The notes under the pieces are model-generated. The model was not told the origin of the DNA and did no database searches. It was given only the letters and a program-made list of their open reading frames with translations. Positions 9,375 to 42,408 of a stretch of 64,000 nucleotides of DNA are shown in pieces. The position numbers were made by a program, and so were the translations under genes. The DNA lies in the IMG/VR virus record IMGVR_UViG_3300032236_001024, positions 128,001-192,000 of that record; one strand, given 5' to 3'. This DNA is from a virus (Duplodnaviria; Caudoviricetes). How positions within the stretch are numbered: the stretch's first letter is position 1; each line of letters starts with the position of its first letter.

Positions 9375-9466
9375 TGGTAGGGGCTACAGGATTCGAACCT
9401 ATTCGAGAACGCTAATCGGGCGCTAGAAGGTTTATAAGACCTCCCTGTGTACCAACACCAACCCCC
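9375..9466 (-). tRNA. tRNA-Ile(TAT) with long variable arm and 4-nt D-loop
   Basis: GAGGT-CTTATAA-ACCTT, about 24-nt variable region, ATAGG-TTCGAAT-CCTGT, CCA. Confidence 0.75.
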
Positions 9467-26138: not shown

Positions 26139-26216
26139 TGGAGGGGAAGATGGGAGTCGAACCCACCTAAAAAGGTTTTGCAGACCTTGCCATAACCGCT
26201 CTGGACTCACTTCCCC
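26139..26216 (-). tRNA. tRNA-Cys(GCA)
   Basis: AAGGT-CTGCAAA-ACCTT, U73 discriminator, CCA. Confidence 0.88.
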
Positions 26217-26226
26217 GTATAAATGA

Positions 26227-26299
26227 TGGTGGAGTAAGTGGGACTCGAACCCACCTCAGATTCCTTGCAAAGGATTCCTGCTTGCCCTGAGCCTACCCC
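26227..26299 (-). tRNA. tRNA-Ala(TGC)
   Basis: TTTGCAA loop; G3:U70 pair in acceptor GGGGTAG/TTACTCC; CCA. Confidence 0.85.
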
Positions 26300-26308
26300 A
26301 ATTCTTAT

Positions 26309-27739
26309 TTAGTAATCGTAACGCTCATTCATGATAGTCTTGAGCATGATTGCTTCTGGAGTGAAATCATCCATATCAGCTGCAAGAACTGACTTGACGA
26401 TTGCAGGAGAGAAACCAGAAACAAGAGCAGCACCACGAGTATCATACTTCACAGGTACGTTGTCGTTAGCATTAAGGTTCCAGAAGATGATATTAGGCAC
26501 CTTATAACCAGCTTCAGTATACTTGCGAGCAATCATTTCCATTGCAGAATCATCATGGTGAGTGCACTGATCAAACTGCATATCAGAAAGGATCAACAAA
26601 GCTTCAGGCATTTCCTCTTGAGGAACATTACCATTCTTTGCAACAACAAGGATATTATCCAAAGCCATATGAAGATTGGTGTTCATTTCCCACTTCGAAG
26701 TCACCATCTGCTTGATCTTGTCGAGGATGTTGCCACGAAGATTAAGCAACTGAGGCTGTGAAGAAAACGTTAGGAACGTATCTTTGAACTTACCTTTGTT
26801 CTTGTCAGCAAGATACAGACCCAGTGAGACTGCAACTTCAAGACAAGTTACAGTAGACTTCGACTGCCAACCACCAGCTTTTGTAGTCATTGATCCAGAA
26901 ACGTCAACTAGAGGAAGGATGTTAGCATCGCCAATATAGTTAGGCAAAGCTTCCCACTGAGCAAGGATATGATTCAAATTATGCTGATCATAATGATCAT
27001 AATGATTAATCATACCCTTCAGCACATCATAAGGATACACTGCACCAGCGTTAACCTTGACTTCCTTCTTGACTTCAGGATCAGTCGAAACGAGAGCAGC
27101 AGTCCATTCCTTATACTTTTCAGTATGACGAGAGAACGCCTTCTTATAACGACCAGAAGCAACAGAAGGAACATGGTTGAAGTTGATGTTATCCCAATCA
27201 TTGGCGCACATCTGAGTTTCAACAACCTTAGTCAGTTCAACCAGACGTTTACGATAGAACTTAGGAGTCCAACCAAGGTGGTTACGAAGCTTCACAGCTA
27301 CTTCACCTTGACGAGGCATCCACTTAGCACAGAGACCATTTGAATCCTCAAGGGCATAACGAATTTGTTCAAACGCATAGTATTCAGCACGAGTGCCAAC
27401 AAGAACCAACAGATCATCCCAGCGTCCAAGTTCAGGAACCTTACGCATCATAATCATACAATAGTCCAAATCTTCCTTAGCGAGATCAACAAGGATATCA
27501 CGAAAAATCTTGCGTTCTCCTGCACCTCCACGAACGTCACGAGCCCAAAGTGCAACACGAGTTGCAAGATCAAGGTTCTCAACACGAGCAGCAGTCCATG
27601 AAGGAATTACATCCTTGCCACGCATAGCACCAATCTTAAAGAAAAGATCAGTAACTGCGTTGGCAGTGGACTTACGAGCCTTCATACCATTCTGGGTACG
27701 AACCTCTTGATTGATTACAGCATTCACGAAGGTATTCAT
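26309..27739 (-). CDS. TROVE-like/vWA protein (DUF2828 family, Ro60-like)
   Basis: ARDVRGGAGER, GRWDDL, AKWMPR, MIDAS DVSGSM, SDMQFD, LVSGFSP. Confidence 0.85.
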   Translation of the reverse strand: MNTFVNAVINQEVRTQNGMKARKSTANAVTDLFFKIGAMRGKDVIPSWTAARVENLDLATRVALWARDVRGGAGERKIFRDILVDLAKEDLDYCMIMMRKVPELGRWDDLLVLVGTRAEYYAFEQIRYALEDSNGLCAKWMPRQGEVAVKLRNHLGWTPKFYRKRLVELTKVVETQMCANDWDNINFNHVPSVASGRYKKAFSRHTEKYKEWTAALVSTDPEVKKEVKVNAGAVYPYDVLKGMINHYDHYDQHNLNHILAQWEALPNYIGDANILPLVDVSGSMTTKAGGWQSKSTVTCLEVAVSLGLYLADKNKGKFKDTFLTFSSQPQLLNLRGNILDKIKQMVTSKWEMNTNLHMALDNILVVAKNGNVPQEEMPEALLILSDMQFDQCTHHDDSAMEMIARKYTEAGYKVPNIIFWNLNANDNVPVKYDTRGAALVSGFSPAIVKSVLAADMDDFTPEAIMLKTIMNERYDY

Positions 27740-27758
27740 TTCACTTTCTCCTTTTCTA

Positions 27759-27817
27759 CAGATTCAACTTTTGTTTGTTTTCAAGACAAATTTTGGTTTG
27801 TTGCGGAACTGAATCTA
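27759..27817 (-). ncRNA. Y-RNA-like unit 3 (short) upstream of TROVE gene
   Basis: AGATTCA...TGAATCT closing stem, TTCCGCAA motif, inner hairpin TTTGT-CTTGAAA-ACAAA. Confidence 0.55.
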
Positions 27818-27824
27818 AACTCAA

Positions 27825-27917
27825 CAGGATACACTTACTGTGGATTCGAACCACTAAGTCTGATTAAAAGTCAGATTGATAACCAATATCAAGTAATTGT
27901 TTGCTGAAGGTATCCTA
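27825..27917 (-). ncRNA. Y-RNA-like unit 2 containing a tRNA-Lys(TTT)-like cloverleaf
   Basis: AGGATAC...GTATCCT closing stem, TTCAGCAA motif, D, anticodon and T arms, no CCA. Confidence 0.65.
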
Positions 27918-27925
27918 AAACTCAA

Positions 27926-28043
27926 CAGACTGACCCCTACTTTCATTTTTTTATAGTGGATTTCATCGAAACATAACCACTTTGATTGCCTGTGGGGCAA
28001 TTACCTAGCTTTTTTGATAGGTTTATGCTGAATAGTCAATCTA
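27926..28043 (-). ncRNA. Y-RNA-like unit 1 upstream of TROVE gene
   Basis: GATTGACT...GGTCAGTC closing stem, TTCAGCA motif, inner hairpins ATTGCC/GGCAAT and GTGG/CCAC. Confidence 0.55.
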
Positions 28044-28060
28044 AATTCTATTAACGTATA

Positions 28061-28294
28061 TTAAAGCATTCTCGACACAGTGTCAACATCAAAAATGCCT
28101 TCAACGAAATTTTCTGCACAATCTTCTGCATAACTTATGCTATGCCTACTAACATCACGAACTTCTACCAAAACATCGTTAACATACAATCTAACATGAT
28201 AACCATTATCTGCTTTGATTATATCAGCACGACGCTTTTCATTATTCAAACTACCTGAACTATAAAAGCTAGACAAAACCATGAGTGACTCCAT
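28061..28294 (-). CDS. small hypothetical phage protein
   Basis: 77 aa ORF, S..YAED.AENFV pattern. Confidence 0.65.
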   Translation of the reverse strand: MESLMVLSSFYSSGSLNNEKRRADIIKADNGYHVRLYVNDVLVEVRDVSRHSISYAEDCAENFVEGIFDVDTVSRML

Positions 28295-28302
28295 GTCGTA
28301 AT

Positions 28303-28386
28303 TGGCGGAGGGTAAAGGAATCGAACCATCAACCTTGCGGTGGCAGAGTTTTCAAGACTCTTTGAGCACCTTGCTCGCTACCCTCC
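28303..28386 (-). tRNA. tRNA-Ser(TGA), copy 1
   Basis: AGAGT-CTTGAAA-ACTCT, long variable arm, G73, CCA. Confidence 0.88.
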
Positions 28387-29553
28387 AATTATTAATTCAG
28401 TGATCATTTCAGCTGTTGCAGGACTTAGCGTCCAACCCAAATGACCATGACCTGTATTATACCATACATTATCTATTGTCCTACACTTTCTAACCACAGG
28501 AAGCATGTTTGGAGTCATAGGACGCAAACCAGCCCAAGGATTAGTGTGTTCTGTAGATATATATGGAAAATTCTTACGCACCCATTTTACTAGTGGATCG
28601 ATTCTGTCCATTCGAATATCATAGTTAATACCAGCAAGTTCTGCCGTACCAGCTACTCGAAGTCTAGAACCCAACCTAGATGTTACAATCTTTGCTTCAT
28701 CATCAAGAAGACTTACCACAGGGGCGTCTTCAATGCCATGACCAACATCAAGAGTAATACTATACCCCTTCACAGGGTAAATGTCAATAGGGTCATGCAA
28801 CTTTTTTGAGAATTCTGCACTATTTACACCAGCACAAAGAACAACATGATCATACAAAGAACGTGATTCTTCAGGATCAGCCTTCATACCATACTCAAAC
28901 TTTACATTGTATTTTGATTTGAGAACTTTTTCCATTTCAACACAGAACTTGTGAATATCGCCATTCATATCAGATGGTGTGAAGGTTCCGCCGATAATGT
29001 CCTTAGAATACTGGAGCGAAGGCTCATAGTGCATCACCTGATTTTTGGTCAGTATGAAACGTTTGATACCAATTTTTTCATAGACCTCATCACAGCTACG
29101 TTTTGCAGCTTCAAAGTACTCTTCGTTTTTATAAAAATGAAGGATACCTTGCTTAGTTAGATTGAAGTTGATCTTTTCCTTTTCTGCAATCTCAAGATAA
29201 TGTTTTCTTGATTCAAGTCCCATTTGTGCGGTAGCAATCGTTCTCTCATTCGCATCACCAGTGAGGCTATGATAAAGAAATTTGCTGATCCACTTGTATT
29301 TTGAAATCGATGGAGTTGGATTAATCAACAAAGGCGCATCCTTCTTGATCATCCATTTCATTCCCTTGATGACATTGGGAACTGTAGTCCATACATCACT
29401 GTTGCTAACTGAAAGCTGACCACCATTTGCATATGAGGTTTTCATAGCTGGGTAGTTCTCTTCGTCAATTACAGTAACATCAACTCCACGCCTAGCTAAA
29501 CTATATGCAGTTGTTATTCCTGTAATACCAGCACCAATAACAAGAATTTTCAT
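28378..29553 (-). CDS. dadA: FAD-dependent D-amino acid dehydrogenase (DadA-like)
   Basis: GAGITG, TSYANGGQLS, YPVKGYS, WAGLRPMTP, NTGHGHLGWT. Confidence 0.88.
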   Translation of the reverse strand: MKILVIGAGITGITTAYSLARRGVDVTVIDEENYPAMKTSYANGGQLSVSNSDVWTTVPNVIKGMKWMIKKDAPLLINPTPSISKYKWISKFLYHSLTGDANERTIATAQMGLESRKHYLEIAEKEKINFNLTKQGILHFYKNEEYFEAAKRSCDEVYEKIGIKRFILTKNQVMHYEPSLQYSKDIIGGTFTPSDMNGDIHKFCVEMEKVLKSKYNVKFEYGMKADPEESRSLYDHVVLCAGVNSAEFSKKLHDPIDIYPVKGYSITLDVGHGIEDAPVVSLLDDEAKIVTSRLGSRLRVAGTAELAGINYDIRMDRIDPLVKWVRKNFPYISTEHTNPWAGLRPMTPNMLPVVRKCRTIDNVWYNTGHGHLGWTLSPATAEMITELIIGG

Positions 29554-33281: not shown

Positions 33282-33755
33282 TTAAGCTGCAAGCAATTCT
33301 TTCATACGATCTGCCGCAATAGAAGCAGCAAACGCATTAGGTTTAACCATTGGAGTGACATTACACATACCACGAATATATCCAATAGCTTCGTTAAGAA
33401 CACATGATGAACCATGCATTTCATCAGGATTGATATCCAGATGAACTTCTACATAACGATCTTCAAGAACTTCTGCCAACTGTAAATACAGTTCTGCAAC
33501 TTTATAAACCTCAGTCATCAGACGCATACGAGGACGATCTTTCCTCGTCATATCGTAATCTCGCTCACGATGAACTGAACCAAAAACCTTACATCCATTT
33601 TTACCGTTGATGTGAACAACAACTGCTAGAGTGTAATCTGCATACCATATGCCCTTGACATTAAGTTTCTCAGAATCAGCACCAATATAAATCTTAGTGT
33701 CTTCTCCTTGTGTAGAAATAAATTCAATAACTTCGTCGATGTTCATATTCTGCAT
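33282..33755 (-). CDS. RNase H-like YkuK/DUF458 family protein
   Basis: IYIGADS, RLMTEV, EVHLDIN, KPNAFAAS.AAD. Confidence 0.8.
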   Translation of the reverse strand: MQNMNIDEVIEFISTQGEDTKIYIGADSEKLNVKGIWYADYTLAVVVHINGKNGCKVFGSVHRERDYDMTRKDRPRMRLMTEVYKVAELYLQLAEVLEDRYVEVHLDINPDEMHGSSCVLNEAIGYIRGMCNVTPMVKPNAFAASIAADRMKELLAA

Positions 33756-33775
33756 ATTACACTCTCCTATGTTAA

Positions 33776-33910
33776 AGCTGGGACTCACGTAAATATAGAG
33801 GCAAGTAAGGAACTCGTACTATATATTTGTCCCGAATGTGTCTGGCATTGCGACTAGTAGTTATGGTAATTACGCACGACTTTATCTCATAACTCTAGTA
33901 TCCAGATCAA
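33776..33910 (-). ncRNA. putative structured 5' leader (two long hairpin domains)
   Basis: CTAG-AGTTATG/CATAACT-ACTAG and GGGAC-AAATATA/TATATTT-GTCCC stems in an intergenic gap. Confidence 0.45.
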
Positions 33911-42332: not shown

Positions 42333-42408
42333 TGGTAGACCCTCCGGGGCTCGAACCCGGGACAATTCGATTAAAAGTCGAGTACTCTACCTACTGAGCT
42401 AAGGGTCC
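42333..42408 (-). tRNA. tRNA-Lys(TTT)
   Basis: CTCGA-CTTTTAA-TCGAA, CCA. Confidence 0.92.

What the first reader, a model, noticed from the sequence alone, without database searches (positions are those of the whole stretch)
27825..27917. Complete tRNA-Lys(UUU)-like cloverleaf locked inside ncRNA unit 2; unit 3 shows a Ser(UGA)-like anticodon hairpin
Seen: unit 2 has TTACT/AGTAA, a D arm TGATA-TTGGT-TATCA, TCTGA-CTTTTAA-TCAGA and GTGG-TTCGAAT-CCAC, but no CCA end; the stem continues into the closing helix. Unit 3 has TTTGT-CTTGAAA-ACAAA. Genuine tRNA-Lys(TTT) and two tRNA-Ser(TGA) genes lie elsewhere in the window. Known: tRNA-Lys(UUU) is the target of PrrC-type anticodon nucleases. Inference: non-chargeable decoys.
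Basis: partly seen in the sequence, partly recalled or inferred. Interest (0 to 1): 0.65.

Follow-up and report, generated by a model that had tools for sequence, protein, structure and literature searches.

The report
tRNA-Lys mimic on Ro60-like RNA handle
A lake phage carries a well-conserved look-alike of lysine tRNA that is not an ordinary tRNA gene: it is the cargo of one of three small "handle" RNAs encoded just upstream of a Ro60-like RNA-binding protein, a protein-RNA pairing that I found in nine phage groups and in no paper.

Summary
On the minus strand, 27831-27899 folds as a tRNA-Lys(UUU) cloverleaf. Rfam tRNA scores it 30.8 bits (gathering 29), and ARAGORN calls it only at 90% thresholds. 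It has no CCA, whereas 20 of 21 ARAGORN tRNAs in the window, and a 22nd Rfam-only tRNA-Cys, encode one. Its 3' acceptor strand runs straight into a closing helix.

It is the insert of unit 2 of three tandem units. Each unit is a 7-bp covarying helix, then (Y)UUC(A/C)GCAA, a variable insert, the 3' strand and CUGU. A sigma-70-like promoter precedes the array, and a 476-aa DUF2828/DUF7788 gene follows it. That protein's predicted fold matches Ro60.

The same handle lies beside this gene family in all 80 related IMG/VR loci and in phages of Listeria, Enterococcus, Staphylococcus, Campylobacter, Mycobacterium, E. coli, Sinorhizobium and Synechococcus. Other inserts are anticodon-arm look-alikes or permuted, YrlA-like tRNAs.

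Best reading: a non-decoding tRNA mimic displayed by a Y-RNA-like ribonucleoprotein. The PrrC-decoy idea is untested.

The handle has the grammar of Dictyostelium Class I RNAs, and dictyostelids encode this protein family.

This scan had already noted the handle-protein pairing on other genomes (at least 18 findings). I found no publication describing it.

The parts
28058..28086 (-). Sigma-70-like promoter TTGACA-17 nt-TAATAT, placed just upstream of unit 1
   Evidence: 10 of 12 consensus matches, the best site in 26200-28400. This is a consensus match only; no transcript data exist.
27927..28042 (-). Unit 1: closing helix AGAUUGAC/GUCAGUCU, motif UAUUCAGCAU and an insert of about 90 nt containing three hairpins
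   Evidence: minimum-energy fold equals centroid; z -2.09. Equivalent units are present in L001 and L002.
27826..27916 (-). Unit 2, the finding itself: handle helix AGGAUAC (27916-27910) with GUAUCCU (27832-27826), and unpaired motif CUUCAGCAAA (27909-27900)
   Evidence: Frame model R1, which was not trained on this unit, scores it 39 bits with E 3e-5 in the whole 202-kb genome. Rfam RF01414 gives its best genome-wide hit here (22 bits).
27831..27899 (-). tRNA-Lys(UUU)-like cloverleaf. D arm 27891-27877. Anticodon arm 27875-27859, with UUU at 27868-27866. T arm 27855-27839. No CCA, and U at position 73.
   Evidence: Rfam tRNA 30.8 bits. ARAGORN calls tRNA-Lys only at 90% thresholds. Two compensatory changes relative to L001. 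94.4% identity against 78.4% for the adjacent gene.
27815..27825 (-). Linker GUUGAGUUUAG between units 2 and 3; the same linker, GUUGAGUUUUAG, lies between units 1 and 2. Its first letters continue the conserved 3' CUGU of the handle.
   Evidence: The handle's 3' CUG(U) is conserved across the aligned units.
27760..27816 (-). Unit 3: helix AGAUUCA/UGAAUCU, motif GUUCCGCAAC, and the insert hairpin UUUGU-CUUGAAA-ACAAA (27790-27774), whose loop matches the loop of tRNA-Ser(UGA)
   Evidence: R1 scores it 58.6 bits, but it was in the training set. In L001 and L002 the hairpin stem differs and the loop is kept. The genuine tRNA-Ser(UGA) loop is CUUGAAA.
27748..27753 (-). Shine-Dalgarno AAGGAG, 6 nt after the unit 3 helix and 8 nt before the ATG
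   Evidence: In nearly all 80 related loci the last unit ends 13-21 nt before the start codon.
26309..27739 (-). 476-aa DUF2828 + DUF7788 protein with a Ro60-like predicted fold (helical-repeat ring plus vWA domain with a DxSxS MIDAS motif)
   Evidence: Pfam hits. AlphaFold2 model with pLDDT 73.7 and pTM 0.74. The top 12 Foldseek PDB hits are all Ro60: 9KOP E 1.2e-7 and TM 0.56, then 2NVO, 1YVR and 1YVP. D279, S281 and S283 are invariant in the alignment.

Best explanation
Unit 2 is one gene of a three-unit array of small Y-RNA-like RNAs, co-transcribed with the Ro60-like protein gene that follows it.

Each RNA has a constant handle: a 7-bp terminal helix, an unpaired (Y)UUC(A/C)GCAA next to its 5' strand, and a 3' CUGU. 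I infer that the handle is the binding site of the Ro60-like (DUF2828/DUF7788) protein. Each RNA also has an exchangeable cargo.

In unit 2 the cargo is a complete, unpermuted mimic of tRNA-Lys(UUU). It is fused to the handle through its acceptor stem, so its 3' end is not free, and it is not meant to be charged or to decode.

The ribonucleoprotein would present a tRNA body and an authentic-looking Lys anticodon arm to a factor that recognises tRNA-Lys. In unit 3 it would present a Ser(UGA)-type anticodon arm. The factor could be a nuclease, a modification enzyme or a host immunity protein, which the particle would tether, titrate or sense. This is how bacterial Y RNAs of the YrlA type couple Ro60 to other proteins.

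The last unit abuts the ribosome-binding site, so the protein probably also represses its own translation.

Shown here: the cloverleaf, its conservation, the handle's covariation, the handle-gene linkage across distant phages, and the predicted Ro60 fold.

Inferred: protein binding to the handle, processing into separate RNAs, the identity of the target, and autoregulation.
For: (1) The cloverleaf is real and under selection.

(2) It does not look like this phage's working tRNAs. It has no CCA, against 20 of 21 ARAGORN tRNAs plus the Rfam-only tRNA-Cys. It has U73 and a weak acceptor stem whose outer pair is claimed by the handle. It is no closer to the phage's own tRNA-Lys than to any other of its tRNAs: 45 of 69 identities, with a range of 38-46.

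(3) The handle helix covaries. In 25 short units, 88% of cells are paired and 54 cells changed on both sides. None of 500 shuffles reached this, and sliding the partner columns drops pairing to 27-44%.

(4) The handle is linked to the gene.
- Arrays lie upstream of all 80 related loci.
- Frame model R1 finds units that were not in its training set beside the homologous gene in Synechococcus phage BUCT-ZZ01 (41.8 bits), Listeria A511 (39.7 and 32), Mycobacterium phage Nicholas (27.7), E. coli phage Bas63 (27.1), a Staphylococcus phage (27.4) and a Campylobacter phage (24).
- By eye the handle is also present in Enterococcus EFDG1, Sinorhizobium phiM7 and KVP40.
- In the phage's own 202-kb genome, R1 hits only units 2 and 3.

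(5) The protein folds like Ro60. Homologues in mycobacteriophages are annotated 'Ro-like RNA binding protein'.

(6) tRNA-like cargo recurs. Anticodon-arm-like hairpins occur in 32 of 111 distinct inserts, against 8.2 expected (maximum 16 in 200 shuffles). T arms occur in 6, against 0.15 expected. Permuted T-arm / closed acceptor / D-arm bodies occur in L001, L050, Nicholas and EFDG1.

(7) Precedents exist. Bacterial and mycobacteriophage Ro60 bind tRNA-like YrlA RNAs encoded next to the gene (PMC4201824). Thermus phage phiLo Ro60 binds two upstream Y-like RNAs (PMC12135203). Bas63 gp130, a homologue at 37% identity, was reported as Ro60-like and as a counter to the Ppl defence system (PMC11482910).
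Against: - There are no expression or RNA-end data. Only DNA metagenomes hold the sequence, and the one RNA run does not cover the array.
- No binding data exist. The protein-handle contact is inferred from co-occurrence alone.
- The Ro60 similarity rests on a medium-confidence model (pLDDT 73.7; TM 0.56 to 9KOP). There is no TROVE Pfam hit and no sequence hit to solved Ro60 structures.
- The handle motif differs from the Ro60-binding motif GNCGAAN0-1G of YrlA, and Rfam's YrlA model does not match.
- M. smegmatis YrlA is cut by RNase P and receives CCA in vivo. Maturation of this mimic into a CCA-tailed species therefore cannot be excluded from sequence.
- Folding energies are not better than shuffles (z -1.14 for unit 2).
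Confidence: 0.7

Rival explanations
1. Free anticodon-nuclease decoy. The mimic and the Ser(UGA)-type hairpin act without the Ro60-like protein as non-chargeable substrates or inhibitors. They soak up PrrC/RloC-type or other tRNA-Lys-cleaving defence nucleases and so spare real tRNA-Lys.
For: The anticodon loop CUUUUAA is identical to that of the genuine tRNA-Lys. Loops of the CUU-N-N-AA type (Lys UUU, Ser UGA, Thr UGU, Gln UUG) recur in inserts of related arrays. The phage encodes no RtcB or Rnl2 ligase that could repair cleaved tRNA; the Rnl1 search was uninformative. A homologue of the neighbouring protein counters a defence system in Bas63.
Against: No nuclease, host or cleavage data exist. 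The strict coupling of every unit to a conserved handle and to the Ro60-like gene across phyla is unexplained if the RNA acts alone. Many inserts are not anticodon-like at all. The only experimentally linked defence system, Ppl, is proposed by its authors to attack DNA.
Confidence: 0.12
2. A real, low-scoring second tRNA-Lys(UUU) gene. RNase P and 3' trimming release it from the array, the host CCA-adding enzyme completes it, and it decodes AAA/AAG.
For: Rfam tRNA score is just above gathering and ARAGORN calls Lys at relaxed thresholds. The conserved tertiary nucleotides are in place: U8, A14, G18-G19, U33 and the T loop UUCGAAU. The array lies in a tRNA-rich region with 21 ARAGORN tRNAs on the same strand. 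M. smegmatis YrlA is cut by RNase P and CCA-tailed.
Against: It has no encoded CCA, unlike essentially all tRNAs of this phage. It has U73 instead of A73. The acceptor is AU-rich with an A.G mismatch in the window and a bulge in L001. Nucleotide 9 is missing. A canonical tRNA-Lys(UUU) scoring 65 bits is already present. The mimic sits inside a handle that elsewhere carries non-tRNA inserts.
Confidence: 0.08
3. A purely cis-acting leader. The units are structured 5'-UTR elements of the Ro60-like mRNA, serving as an autoregulatory operator, mRNA stabiliser or RNase P 'punctuation' signal. The tRNA shape serves only processing.
For: One promoter precedes the array, no terminator-like site lies on the coding strand between array and gene, and the last unit abuts the ribosome-binding site. 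KVP40 and phiM7 keep only a minimal handle in the 5' UTR.
Against: In Bas63, mycobacteriophage Nicholas and the Staphylococcus phage the units lie downstream of the gene or between tRNA genes, not in its leader. Unit number varies from 1 to 7 (L001). Selection keeps the anticodon arm intact (94.4% identity), which a processing signal would not need.
Confidence: 0.07
4. A decaying tRNA pseudogene or a chance cloverleaf that happens to lie in the intergenic array.
For: The tRNA score is low, ARAGORN makes no call at default thresholds, and folding energy is unremarkable.
Against: The unit is more conserved than the flanking gene, and the orthologue carries compensatory changes. The T loop and anticodon loop are perfect. 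tRNA-like inserts are statistically enriched across the family.
Confidence: 0.03

Closest known systems
Bacterial and mycobacteriophage Y RNAs of the YrlA type with Ro60/Rsr (Chen et al. 2014, PMC4201824), and Thermus phage phiLo Ro60 with Yrl1/Yrl2 (PMC12135203)
   Same: Small RNAs are encoded on the same strand next to a Ro60-fold protein. A terminal stem formed by the two RNA ends carries a short conserved motif on its 5' side. A variable module mimics tRNA (T arm, D arm). Several such RNAs can occur per locus.
   Different: The protein belongs to DUF2828/DUF7788, not Pfam TROVE. The motif is (Y)UUC(A/C)GCAA plus a 3' CUGU, not GNCGAAN0-1G. Rfam's YrlA model does not match. In unit 2 the tRNA mimic is unpermuted, joined to the handle by its acceptor stem, and keeps a full anticodon arm with UUU. 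In YrlA the body is permuted, the acceptor is closed by a loop and there is no anticodon arm. Permuted YrlA-like bodies do occur in other units of this family (L001, L050, Nicholas, EFDG1).
Dictyostelid Class I RNAs (Rfam RF01414; Kjellin et al. 2021, PMC7919456)
   Same: The grammar is the same: a 6-7-bp terminal stem with a conserved 5' G, free stem sequence with compensatory changes, an unpaired motif next to the 5' strand (CCUUACAGCAA in Dictyostelium, CCUUCAGCAA in unit 2), a variable remainder and a 3' end CUGU. RF01414 gives its best genome-wide hit on a handle unit in five of six phage genomes tested. All dictyostelids encode a roughly 500-aa DUF2828/DUF7788 protein. The D. discoideum one, DDB_G0281913, is 31% identical to the phage protein with E 1e-64.
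   Different: Scores of 15-24 bits are well below the gathering score of 41.5. Unit 2 is about 90 nt, against 42-65 nt. Class I RNAs are dispersed eukaryotic genes with a DUSE promoter. Their reported pull-down partners (Rnp1A/CIBP, GuaB, NdkC, DDB_G0281243) do not include the DUF2828 protein. Common descent versus convergence is not settled.
Canonical tRNA-Lys(UUU), including the phage's own copy at 42333-42408
   Same: Cloverleaf with D, anticodon and T arms, loop CUUUUAA, T loop UUCGAAU, and G18-G19.
   Different: No CCA, U73, one nucleotide instead of two between the acceptor and D stems, a 4-nt variable loop, mismatches at 3:70 and 49:65, and ends buried in the handle helix. It scores 30.8 bits against 65 bits for the genuine gene.
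Phage-encoded tRNAs that escape or neutralise tRNA-targeting defences (for example T5 tRNA-Lys against PARIS; recalled from my own knowledge, not checked here)
   Same: A phage-borne RNA with a tRNA-Lys anticodon arm could interact with a host system that targets tRNA-Lys.
   Different: Those are functional, chargeable tRNAs. This one is a non-tRNA chimera tied to an RNA-binding protein.

Membership tests
tRNA (RF00005), functional tRNA-Lys gene | Covariance-model score at or above the gathering score, and a call by a tRNA finder | tested here: inconclusive
   30.8 bits against gathering 29, and only in a local scan. The whole-window scan missed it. ARAGORN makes no call at default thresholds and calls tRNA-Lys at 90% thresholds.
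tRNA (RF00005), functional tRNA-Lys gene | A free 3' end with CCA, which this genome encodes in its tRNA genes | tested here: not met
   The sequence after the acceptor reads U-AUCC and pairs into the handle helix. 20 of 21 ARAGORN tRNAs and the Rfam-only tRNA-Cys end in CCA.
tRNA (RF00005), functional tRNA-Lys gene | A regular 7-bp acceptor stem and discriminator A73 (a lysine identity element in E. coli, from my own knowledge) | tested here: not met
   There is an A.G mismatch at 3:70, which is a bulge in L001. The C1-G72 pair competes with the covarying handle pair. Position 73 is U, whereas the genuine phage tRNA-Lys has A73.
tRNA (RF00005), functional tRNA-Lys gene | Aminoacylation and decoding | not testable with these tools
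   This needs a charging assay and acid-gel northern blots.
Y RNA / YrlA | Encoded on the same strand within a few kb of a Ro60 orthologue | tested here: met
   The array ends 20 nt upstream of a gene whose model matches Ro60 structures over its full length. By Pfam, however, the protein is DUF2828/DUF7788 and not TROVE.
Y RNA / YrlA | GNCGAAN0-1G motif near the 5' end, and a match to the YrlA covariance model | tested here: not met
   The motif is CUUCAGCAAA. No YrlA or Y_RNA hit appears at E up to 10.
Y RNA / YrlA | A tRNA-like domain with T and D arms whose acceptor is closed by a loop (permuted order) | tested here: not met
   Unit 2 has normal tRNA order with an open acceptor fused to the handle, plus an anticodon arm. 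Permuted bodies occur in sister units elsewhere.
Y RNA / YrlA | Physical binding by the Ro60 protein | not testable with these tools
Dictyostelid Class I RNA (RF01414) | A 6-bp terminal stem with conserved 5' G, an 11-nt motif with invariant U3, C6, C9, A10 and A11, and a 3' CUGU | tested here: met
   Unit 2 reads GGAUAC-CUU-CAGCAA...GUAUCC-UGU in the model alignment. The helix covaries.
Dictyostelid Class I RNA (RF01414) | Score at or above the Rfam gathering score (41.5 bits), and length of 42-65 nt | tested here: not met
   It scores 22 bits, although that is the top hit in the 202-kb genome. Unit 2 is about 90 nt. Unit 3 is about 57 nt and scores 15.2 bits.
Ro60 / TROVE protein (the neighbouring gene) | Helical-repeat ring plus a C-terminal vWA domain with a MIDAS motif | tested here: met
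   The top 12 Foldseek hits are all Ro60, aligned over about 500 columns. D279-x-S281-x-S283 is invariant. This rests on a predicted structure only (pLDDT 73.7).
Ro60 / TROVE protein (the neighbouring gene) | Match to Pfam TROVE, or sequence similarity to solved Ro60 structures | tested here: not met
   Only PF11443 and PF25043 match. phmmer against the PDB finds no Ro60.

The most novel reading that the evidence does not exclude
The Ro60-like ring and its handle RNAs form a phage counter-defence particle whose exchangeable cargoes are baits. These are whole tRNA-Lys mimics and bare anticodon arms (Lys UUU, Ser UGA, Thr UGU, Gln UUG). They capture or blunt host factors that attack or read tRNA anticodon loops, and phages swap cargoes as hosts change. 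The same handle-protein pair would survive in eukaryotes, where the enigmatic Class I RNAs of Dictyostelium would be the partner RNAs of the DUF2828 protein DDB_G0281913.
Probability: 0.25. Interest if true: 0.9.

Novelty: new variant of a known kind. Interest (0 to 1): 0.7.

Why it matters
- DUF2828/DUF7788 is a large protein family of unknown function. It has 711 phage records in one collection and is widespread in protists and fungi. This locus gives it a concrete candidate RNA ligand with a simple, mutable handle.
- It extends Ro60/Y-RNA biology to a second protein-RNA lineage that is common in phages.
- It shows a new way of building a tRNA mimic: a whole cloverleaf with its anticodon arm, tethered by the acceptor end.
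- The cargo repertoire of anticodon arms points to tRNA-directed conflicts between phage and host. This can be tested in cultivable relatives such as Bas63, A511 and BUCT-ZZ01.
- The match to Dictyostelium Class I RNAs turns a question open since their discovery (reported in 2004) into one experiment: does DDB_G0281913 bind them?

Tried and rejected
- Megablast of the locus against GenBank phages found no match.
- The protein has no NCBIfam family and no sequence hit to solved Ro60 structures.
- Expression could not be assessed. Only DNA metagenomes hold the stretch. The single lake metatranscriptome run has contigs only over the N-terminal coding part of the gene and over tRNA-Ser, all from relatives, and none over the array. 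No conclusion is drawn.
- Folding energy gives no support. The z-score is -0.19 for the 321-nt array, -1.14 for unit 2 and -0.01 for unit 3.
- I asked whether the neighbouring FAD oxidoreductase (28378-29553) is an MnmC-like U34 modification enzyme. It is not. It is D-amino-acid-dehydrogenase-like (NF009074, 488 bits), and MnmC matches only the FAD-binding N-terminus.
- I looked for phage RNA-repair partners. There is no RtcB or Rnl2 in the 202-kb genome. The Rnl1 search was uninformative because its control matched nothing.
- I asked whether the uncharacterised Class I RNA pull-down protein DDB_G0281243 is the Dictyostelium DUF2828 protein. It is not; the DUF2828 protein is DDB_G0281913. The original pull-down paper (PubMed 21941123) is not held.
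- A pattern scan of viral contigs for more orthologues of the mimic found only the L001 contig. Covariation of the cloverleaf itself therefore rests on two sequences.
- Frame model R1 missed unit 1, whose insert is long. It missed unit 2 in the window scan with default filters but found it in the genome scan.
- The Rfam gathering scan of 20 related loci returned only tRNAs.
- Searches for 'DUF2828' (5 papers, none about phages or RNA), for 'DUF7788' (1 unrelated paper) and for phage Ro60/Y-RNA terms found no description of the handle RNA.
Full report
**Setting.** The window is bases 128001-192000 of a complete 202,141-bp IMG/VR virus record with direct terminal repeats. It is a T4-like phage, with UvsX, a gp41-like helicase and a split family-B DNA polymerase. 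DNA runs that hold most of the stretch are labelled only 'metagenome'; freshwater and lake runs hold only small shares, which I did not lay. ARAGORN finds 21 tRNA genes, all on the minus strand. Rfam adds a 22nd, a tRNA-Cys(GCA) at 26142-26216. Everything below is on the minus strand.

**The observation.** Rfam's tRNA model aligns 27831-27899 end to end at 30.8 bits (gathering 29), but only in a local scan. The whole-window scan filtered it out.
- The alignment gives an acceptor stem CAAUUAC/GUAAGUG with an A.G mismatch.
- U8 is present but nucleotide 9 is missing.
- The D arm has G18-G19.
- The anticodon arm is UCUGA-CUUUUAA-UCAGA.
- The variable loop has 4 nt.
- The T arm has the textbook loop UUCGAAU and an A.A mismatch at its first pair.
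- Position 73 is U.

ARAGORN is silent at default thresholds and calls tRNA-Lys(ttt) at 90% thresholds, both here and in the orthologue. RNAfold's minimum-energy and centroid structures show a four-way junction of closing helix, D, anticodon and T hairpins. The cloverleaf lies within 1 kcal/mol of the optimum. Folding energy itself is not better than shuffles.

**Not an ordinary tRNA gene.**
- 20 of 21 ARAGORN tRNAs, and the Rfam-only tRNA-Cys, encode CCA. The mimic does not.
- Its 3' acceptor strand continues without a break into GUAUCCU, the 3' strand of the closing helix. That helix claims G72 and U73.
- The genuine tRNA-Lys at 42333-42408 scores 65 bits and has A73-CCA.
- The mimic is no more similar to the genuine tRNA-Lys than to any other tRNA of the phage, so it is not a recent copy.

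**Under selection.** The nearest relative, L001, has a neighbouring protein 81% identical. It carries the same unit at 94.4% identity, while the adjacent gene's DNA is 78.4% identical and units 1 and 3 are 64.5% and 76.4% identical. The few differences include two compensatory pairs: T stem U-A to C-G, and acceptor U-A to A-U. The mismatched A of the window is deleted in L001, which leaves a bulge. A scan of viral contigs found no further orthologue.

**The unit architecture.** The 320-nt intergenic stretch holds three tandem units. Each unit reads, in order:
- (U)AG and a 5' helix strand;
- an unpaired (Y)UUC(A/C)GCAA;
- a variable insert;
- the 3' helix strand;
- CUGU.

A TTGACA-17-TAATAT promoter lies about 15 nt upstream of unit 1. 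Unit 3 ends 6 nt before the Shine-Dalgarno sequence of a 476-aa gene.

All 80 related IMG/VR loci retrieved with that protein show arrays of one to seven such units upstream of the gene. The last unit nearly always ends 13-21 nt before the ATG.

In an alignment of 25 short units the 7-bp helix covaries strongly. 88% of cells are paired and 54 cells changed on both sides. None of 500 shuffles reached this, and slid controls pair at only 27-44%.

**The neighbouring protein.** Pfam sees DUF2828 plus DUF7788. An AlphaFold2 model (pLDDT 73.7, pTM 0.74) has Ro60 as its top 12 PDB matches, aligned over the full length. These include Thermus phage phiLo Ro60 (9KOP, E 1.2e-7, TM 0.56), Deinococcus Rsr (2NVO), and Xenopus and human Ro60. 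The vWA MIDAS motif DxSxS is invariant. tblastn finds homologues in 711 phage records, some annotated 'Ro-like RNA binding protein'.

**Linkage across distant phages.** A covariance model of the handle (R1) hits only units 3 and 2 in the phage's own genome. Unit 2 was not in the training set and scores 39 bits with E 3e-5.

R1 also finds untrained units beside the homologous gene in these phages:

| Phage | R1 score (bits) |
|---|---|
| Synechococcus phage BUCT-ZZ01 | 41.8 |
| Listeria A511 | 39.7 and 32 |
| Mycobacterium phage Nicholas (downstream of the gene) | 27.7 |
| E. coli phage Bas63 (spacers between tRNA genes downstream of g130) | 27.1 |
| Staphylococcus phage | 27.4 |
| Campylobacter phage | 24 |

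By eye the same handle is in Enterococcus EFDG1 (three units), and in the 5' UTRs of Sinorhizobium phiM7 and KVP40 as a minimal form.

**Cargo diversity.**
- Inserts are enriched for anticodon-arm-like hairpins: 32 of 111 distinct inserts, against 8.2 expected and a maximum of 16 in 200 shuffles.
- They are also enriched for T arms: 6 of 111, against 0.15 expected.
- Loops seen include CUUUUAA (Lys), CUUGAAA (Ser UGA), C/UUUGUAA (Thr) and CUUUGAA (Gln).
- Several units carry permuted tRNA bodies, with T arm, loop-closed acceptor and D arm, as in YrlA (L001, Nicholas, EFDG1). L050 carries a permuted body that also includes an anticodon arm.
- The complete, unpermuted cloverleaf joined through its acceptor was seen only in the window and in L001.
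- A variant contig in one metagenome has about 145 extra bases between units 3 and 2, which suggests that units are gained and lost.

**Literature.**
- Bacterial Ro60 binds Y RNAs. YrlA has a tRNA-like domain, is encoded next to Ro60 (including in 22 phages with TROVE proteins), and carries the motif GNCGAAN0-1G (PMC4201824).
- Thermus phage phiLo Ro60 binds two upstream Y-like RNAs (PMC12135203).
- Bas63 gp130 is a homologue of the protein here. It was noted as Ro60-like and as a counter to the Ppl defence system. The authors guessed that some annotated tRNAs might be Y RNAs (PMC11482910).
- I found no paper that describes the ACAGCAA handle or links DUF2828 to an RNA.
- After I reached this reading, a look-up showed that this scan had already reported the same pairing on at least 18 other genomes. 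Two first-reader notes on this genome describe the array. My results agree with them and were obtained independently here.

**Link to Dictyostelium.** The only Rfam family that matches across the whole of unit 2, other than tRNA on its core, is Dicty_Class_I_RNA (22 bits). It is also the only family matching the Listeria units (23.1 and 19.6 bits).

In whole-genome scans with RF01414, the best hit is a handle unit next to the gene in five of six phage genomes:
- this phage (unit 2);
- the L001 contig (24.2 bits);
- BUCT-ZZ01 (23.6 bits);
- A511 (23.1 bits);
- Bas63 (20.1 bits).

The GC-rich mycobacteriophage gave no hit. All scores are below the gathering score of 41.5.

The published definition of Class I RNAs fits the handle: a 6-bp terminal stem with a conserved 5' G, the 11-nt motif CCUUACAGCAA beside the 5' strand, a variable remainder, and a mature 3' end CUGU. 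The same paper reports them as absent outside Dictyostelia (PMC7919456).

All dictyostelid lineages encode a roughly 500-aa DUF2828/DUF7788 protein. The D. discoideum protein is DDB_G0281913, 31% identical to the phage protein with E 1e-64. It is not among the four reported Class I pull-down proteins, so this link is a hypothesis.

**Mechanism.** I commit to the following.
- The promoter drives one transcript through the three units and the gene.
- The units, released or not, fold into handle plus cargo.
- The Ro60-like protein binds the handle. Binding at the last unit would occlude the ribosome-binding site and so give negative autoregulation.
- The particle displays a tRNA-Lys look-alike (unit 2) and a Ser(UGA)-type anticodon arm (unit 3) to a tRNA-recognising factor.

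The architecture, covariation, linkage and fold are shown. Binding, processing, autoregulation and the target are inferred. A bait role against tRNA-directed host defences is plausible but untested, and nothing points specifically to PrrC. The phage lacks RtcB and Rnl2, so a self-contained repair module is unlikely.

**Verdict.** The reading 'non-chargeable tRNA mimic' is well supported, and 'decoy' remains open. The thing is a new variant of the Ro60/Y-RNA kind of ribonucleoprotein. It has a distinct protein family, a distinct handle and a new tRNA-mimic topology, and it may connect to an unexplained eukaryotic RNA class.

Noticed in passing
L084:3396-3638 (Cronobacter phage S13) and L083:3583-3830 (Synechococcus phage BUCT-ZZ01): Just downstream of the Ro60-like gene lie pairs of over-long 'tRNAs' (113-121 nt in S13, where they are annotated tRNA-Ser and tRNA-OTHER). 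They have normal acceptor, D and T arms and a CCA end. The anticodon loop is replaced by a hairpin followed by AUUCAGCA or AUUCUGCAAU. This is the handle closed by a loop and inserted into a tRNA, a third topology alongside the acceptor-joined and permuted forms.
   Followed up: partly
e.g. L013:2657-2899, L033:2686-2918, L044:2037-2275: Many related arrays contain one unit with a conserved insert of about 225-260 nt. Shared blocks include GGAAAGAC and CAGGGGAUGGGG...AAGCAGAAAAUAAAAA. No Rfam family reaches gathering on these loci. It may be an undescribed large structured cargo.
   Followed up: no
window 26227-26299 (-): Directly after the stop codon of the Ro60-like gene lies a tRNA-like element. 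It has a GGGGUAG/UUACUCC acceptor, a perfect T arm (GUGGG-UUCGAGU-CCCAC) and ACCA. It has no D arm and carries one long irregular hairpin. It gives only weak tmRNA-type hits (13-16 bits) and has no ACAGCAA handle.
   Followed up: partly
window 26142-26216 (-): A tRNA-Cys(GCA) with an encoded CCA and a 3-nt insertion before the D stem. Rfam finds it (38.9 bits) but ARAGORN misses it, which brings the window to 22 tRNA genes.
   Followed up: yes
window 33282-33788 (-); L082:3482-4012 (KVP40.0299): A PF04308 'RNaseH_like' gene lies about 5.5 kb from the Ro60-like gene here, and immediately downstream of its homologue in KVP40. It could be a functional partner.
   Followed up: no
window 27818-27828 junction, seen in metagenome run X1 (record 2): A co-occurring strain variant carries about 145 extra bases between units 3 and 2. 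This is consistent with unit gain or loss, as in L001 (seven units) and L002.
   Followed up: partly
L099:1830-2300 (Enterococcus phage EFDG1): Each of the three handle units is preceded by a second repeated element, roughly GGUUUUG...AUAGUUCC...CCGGAACAUAAAGAA. This suggests a longer composite repeat in Herelleviridae.
   Followed up: no
window 9375-9466 (-): ARAGORN calls a 92-nt tRNA-Ile(tat) with CCA that Rfam does not report at gathering. Its extra length was not examined.
   Followed up: no
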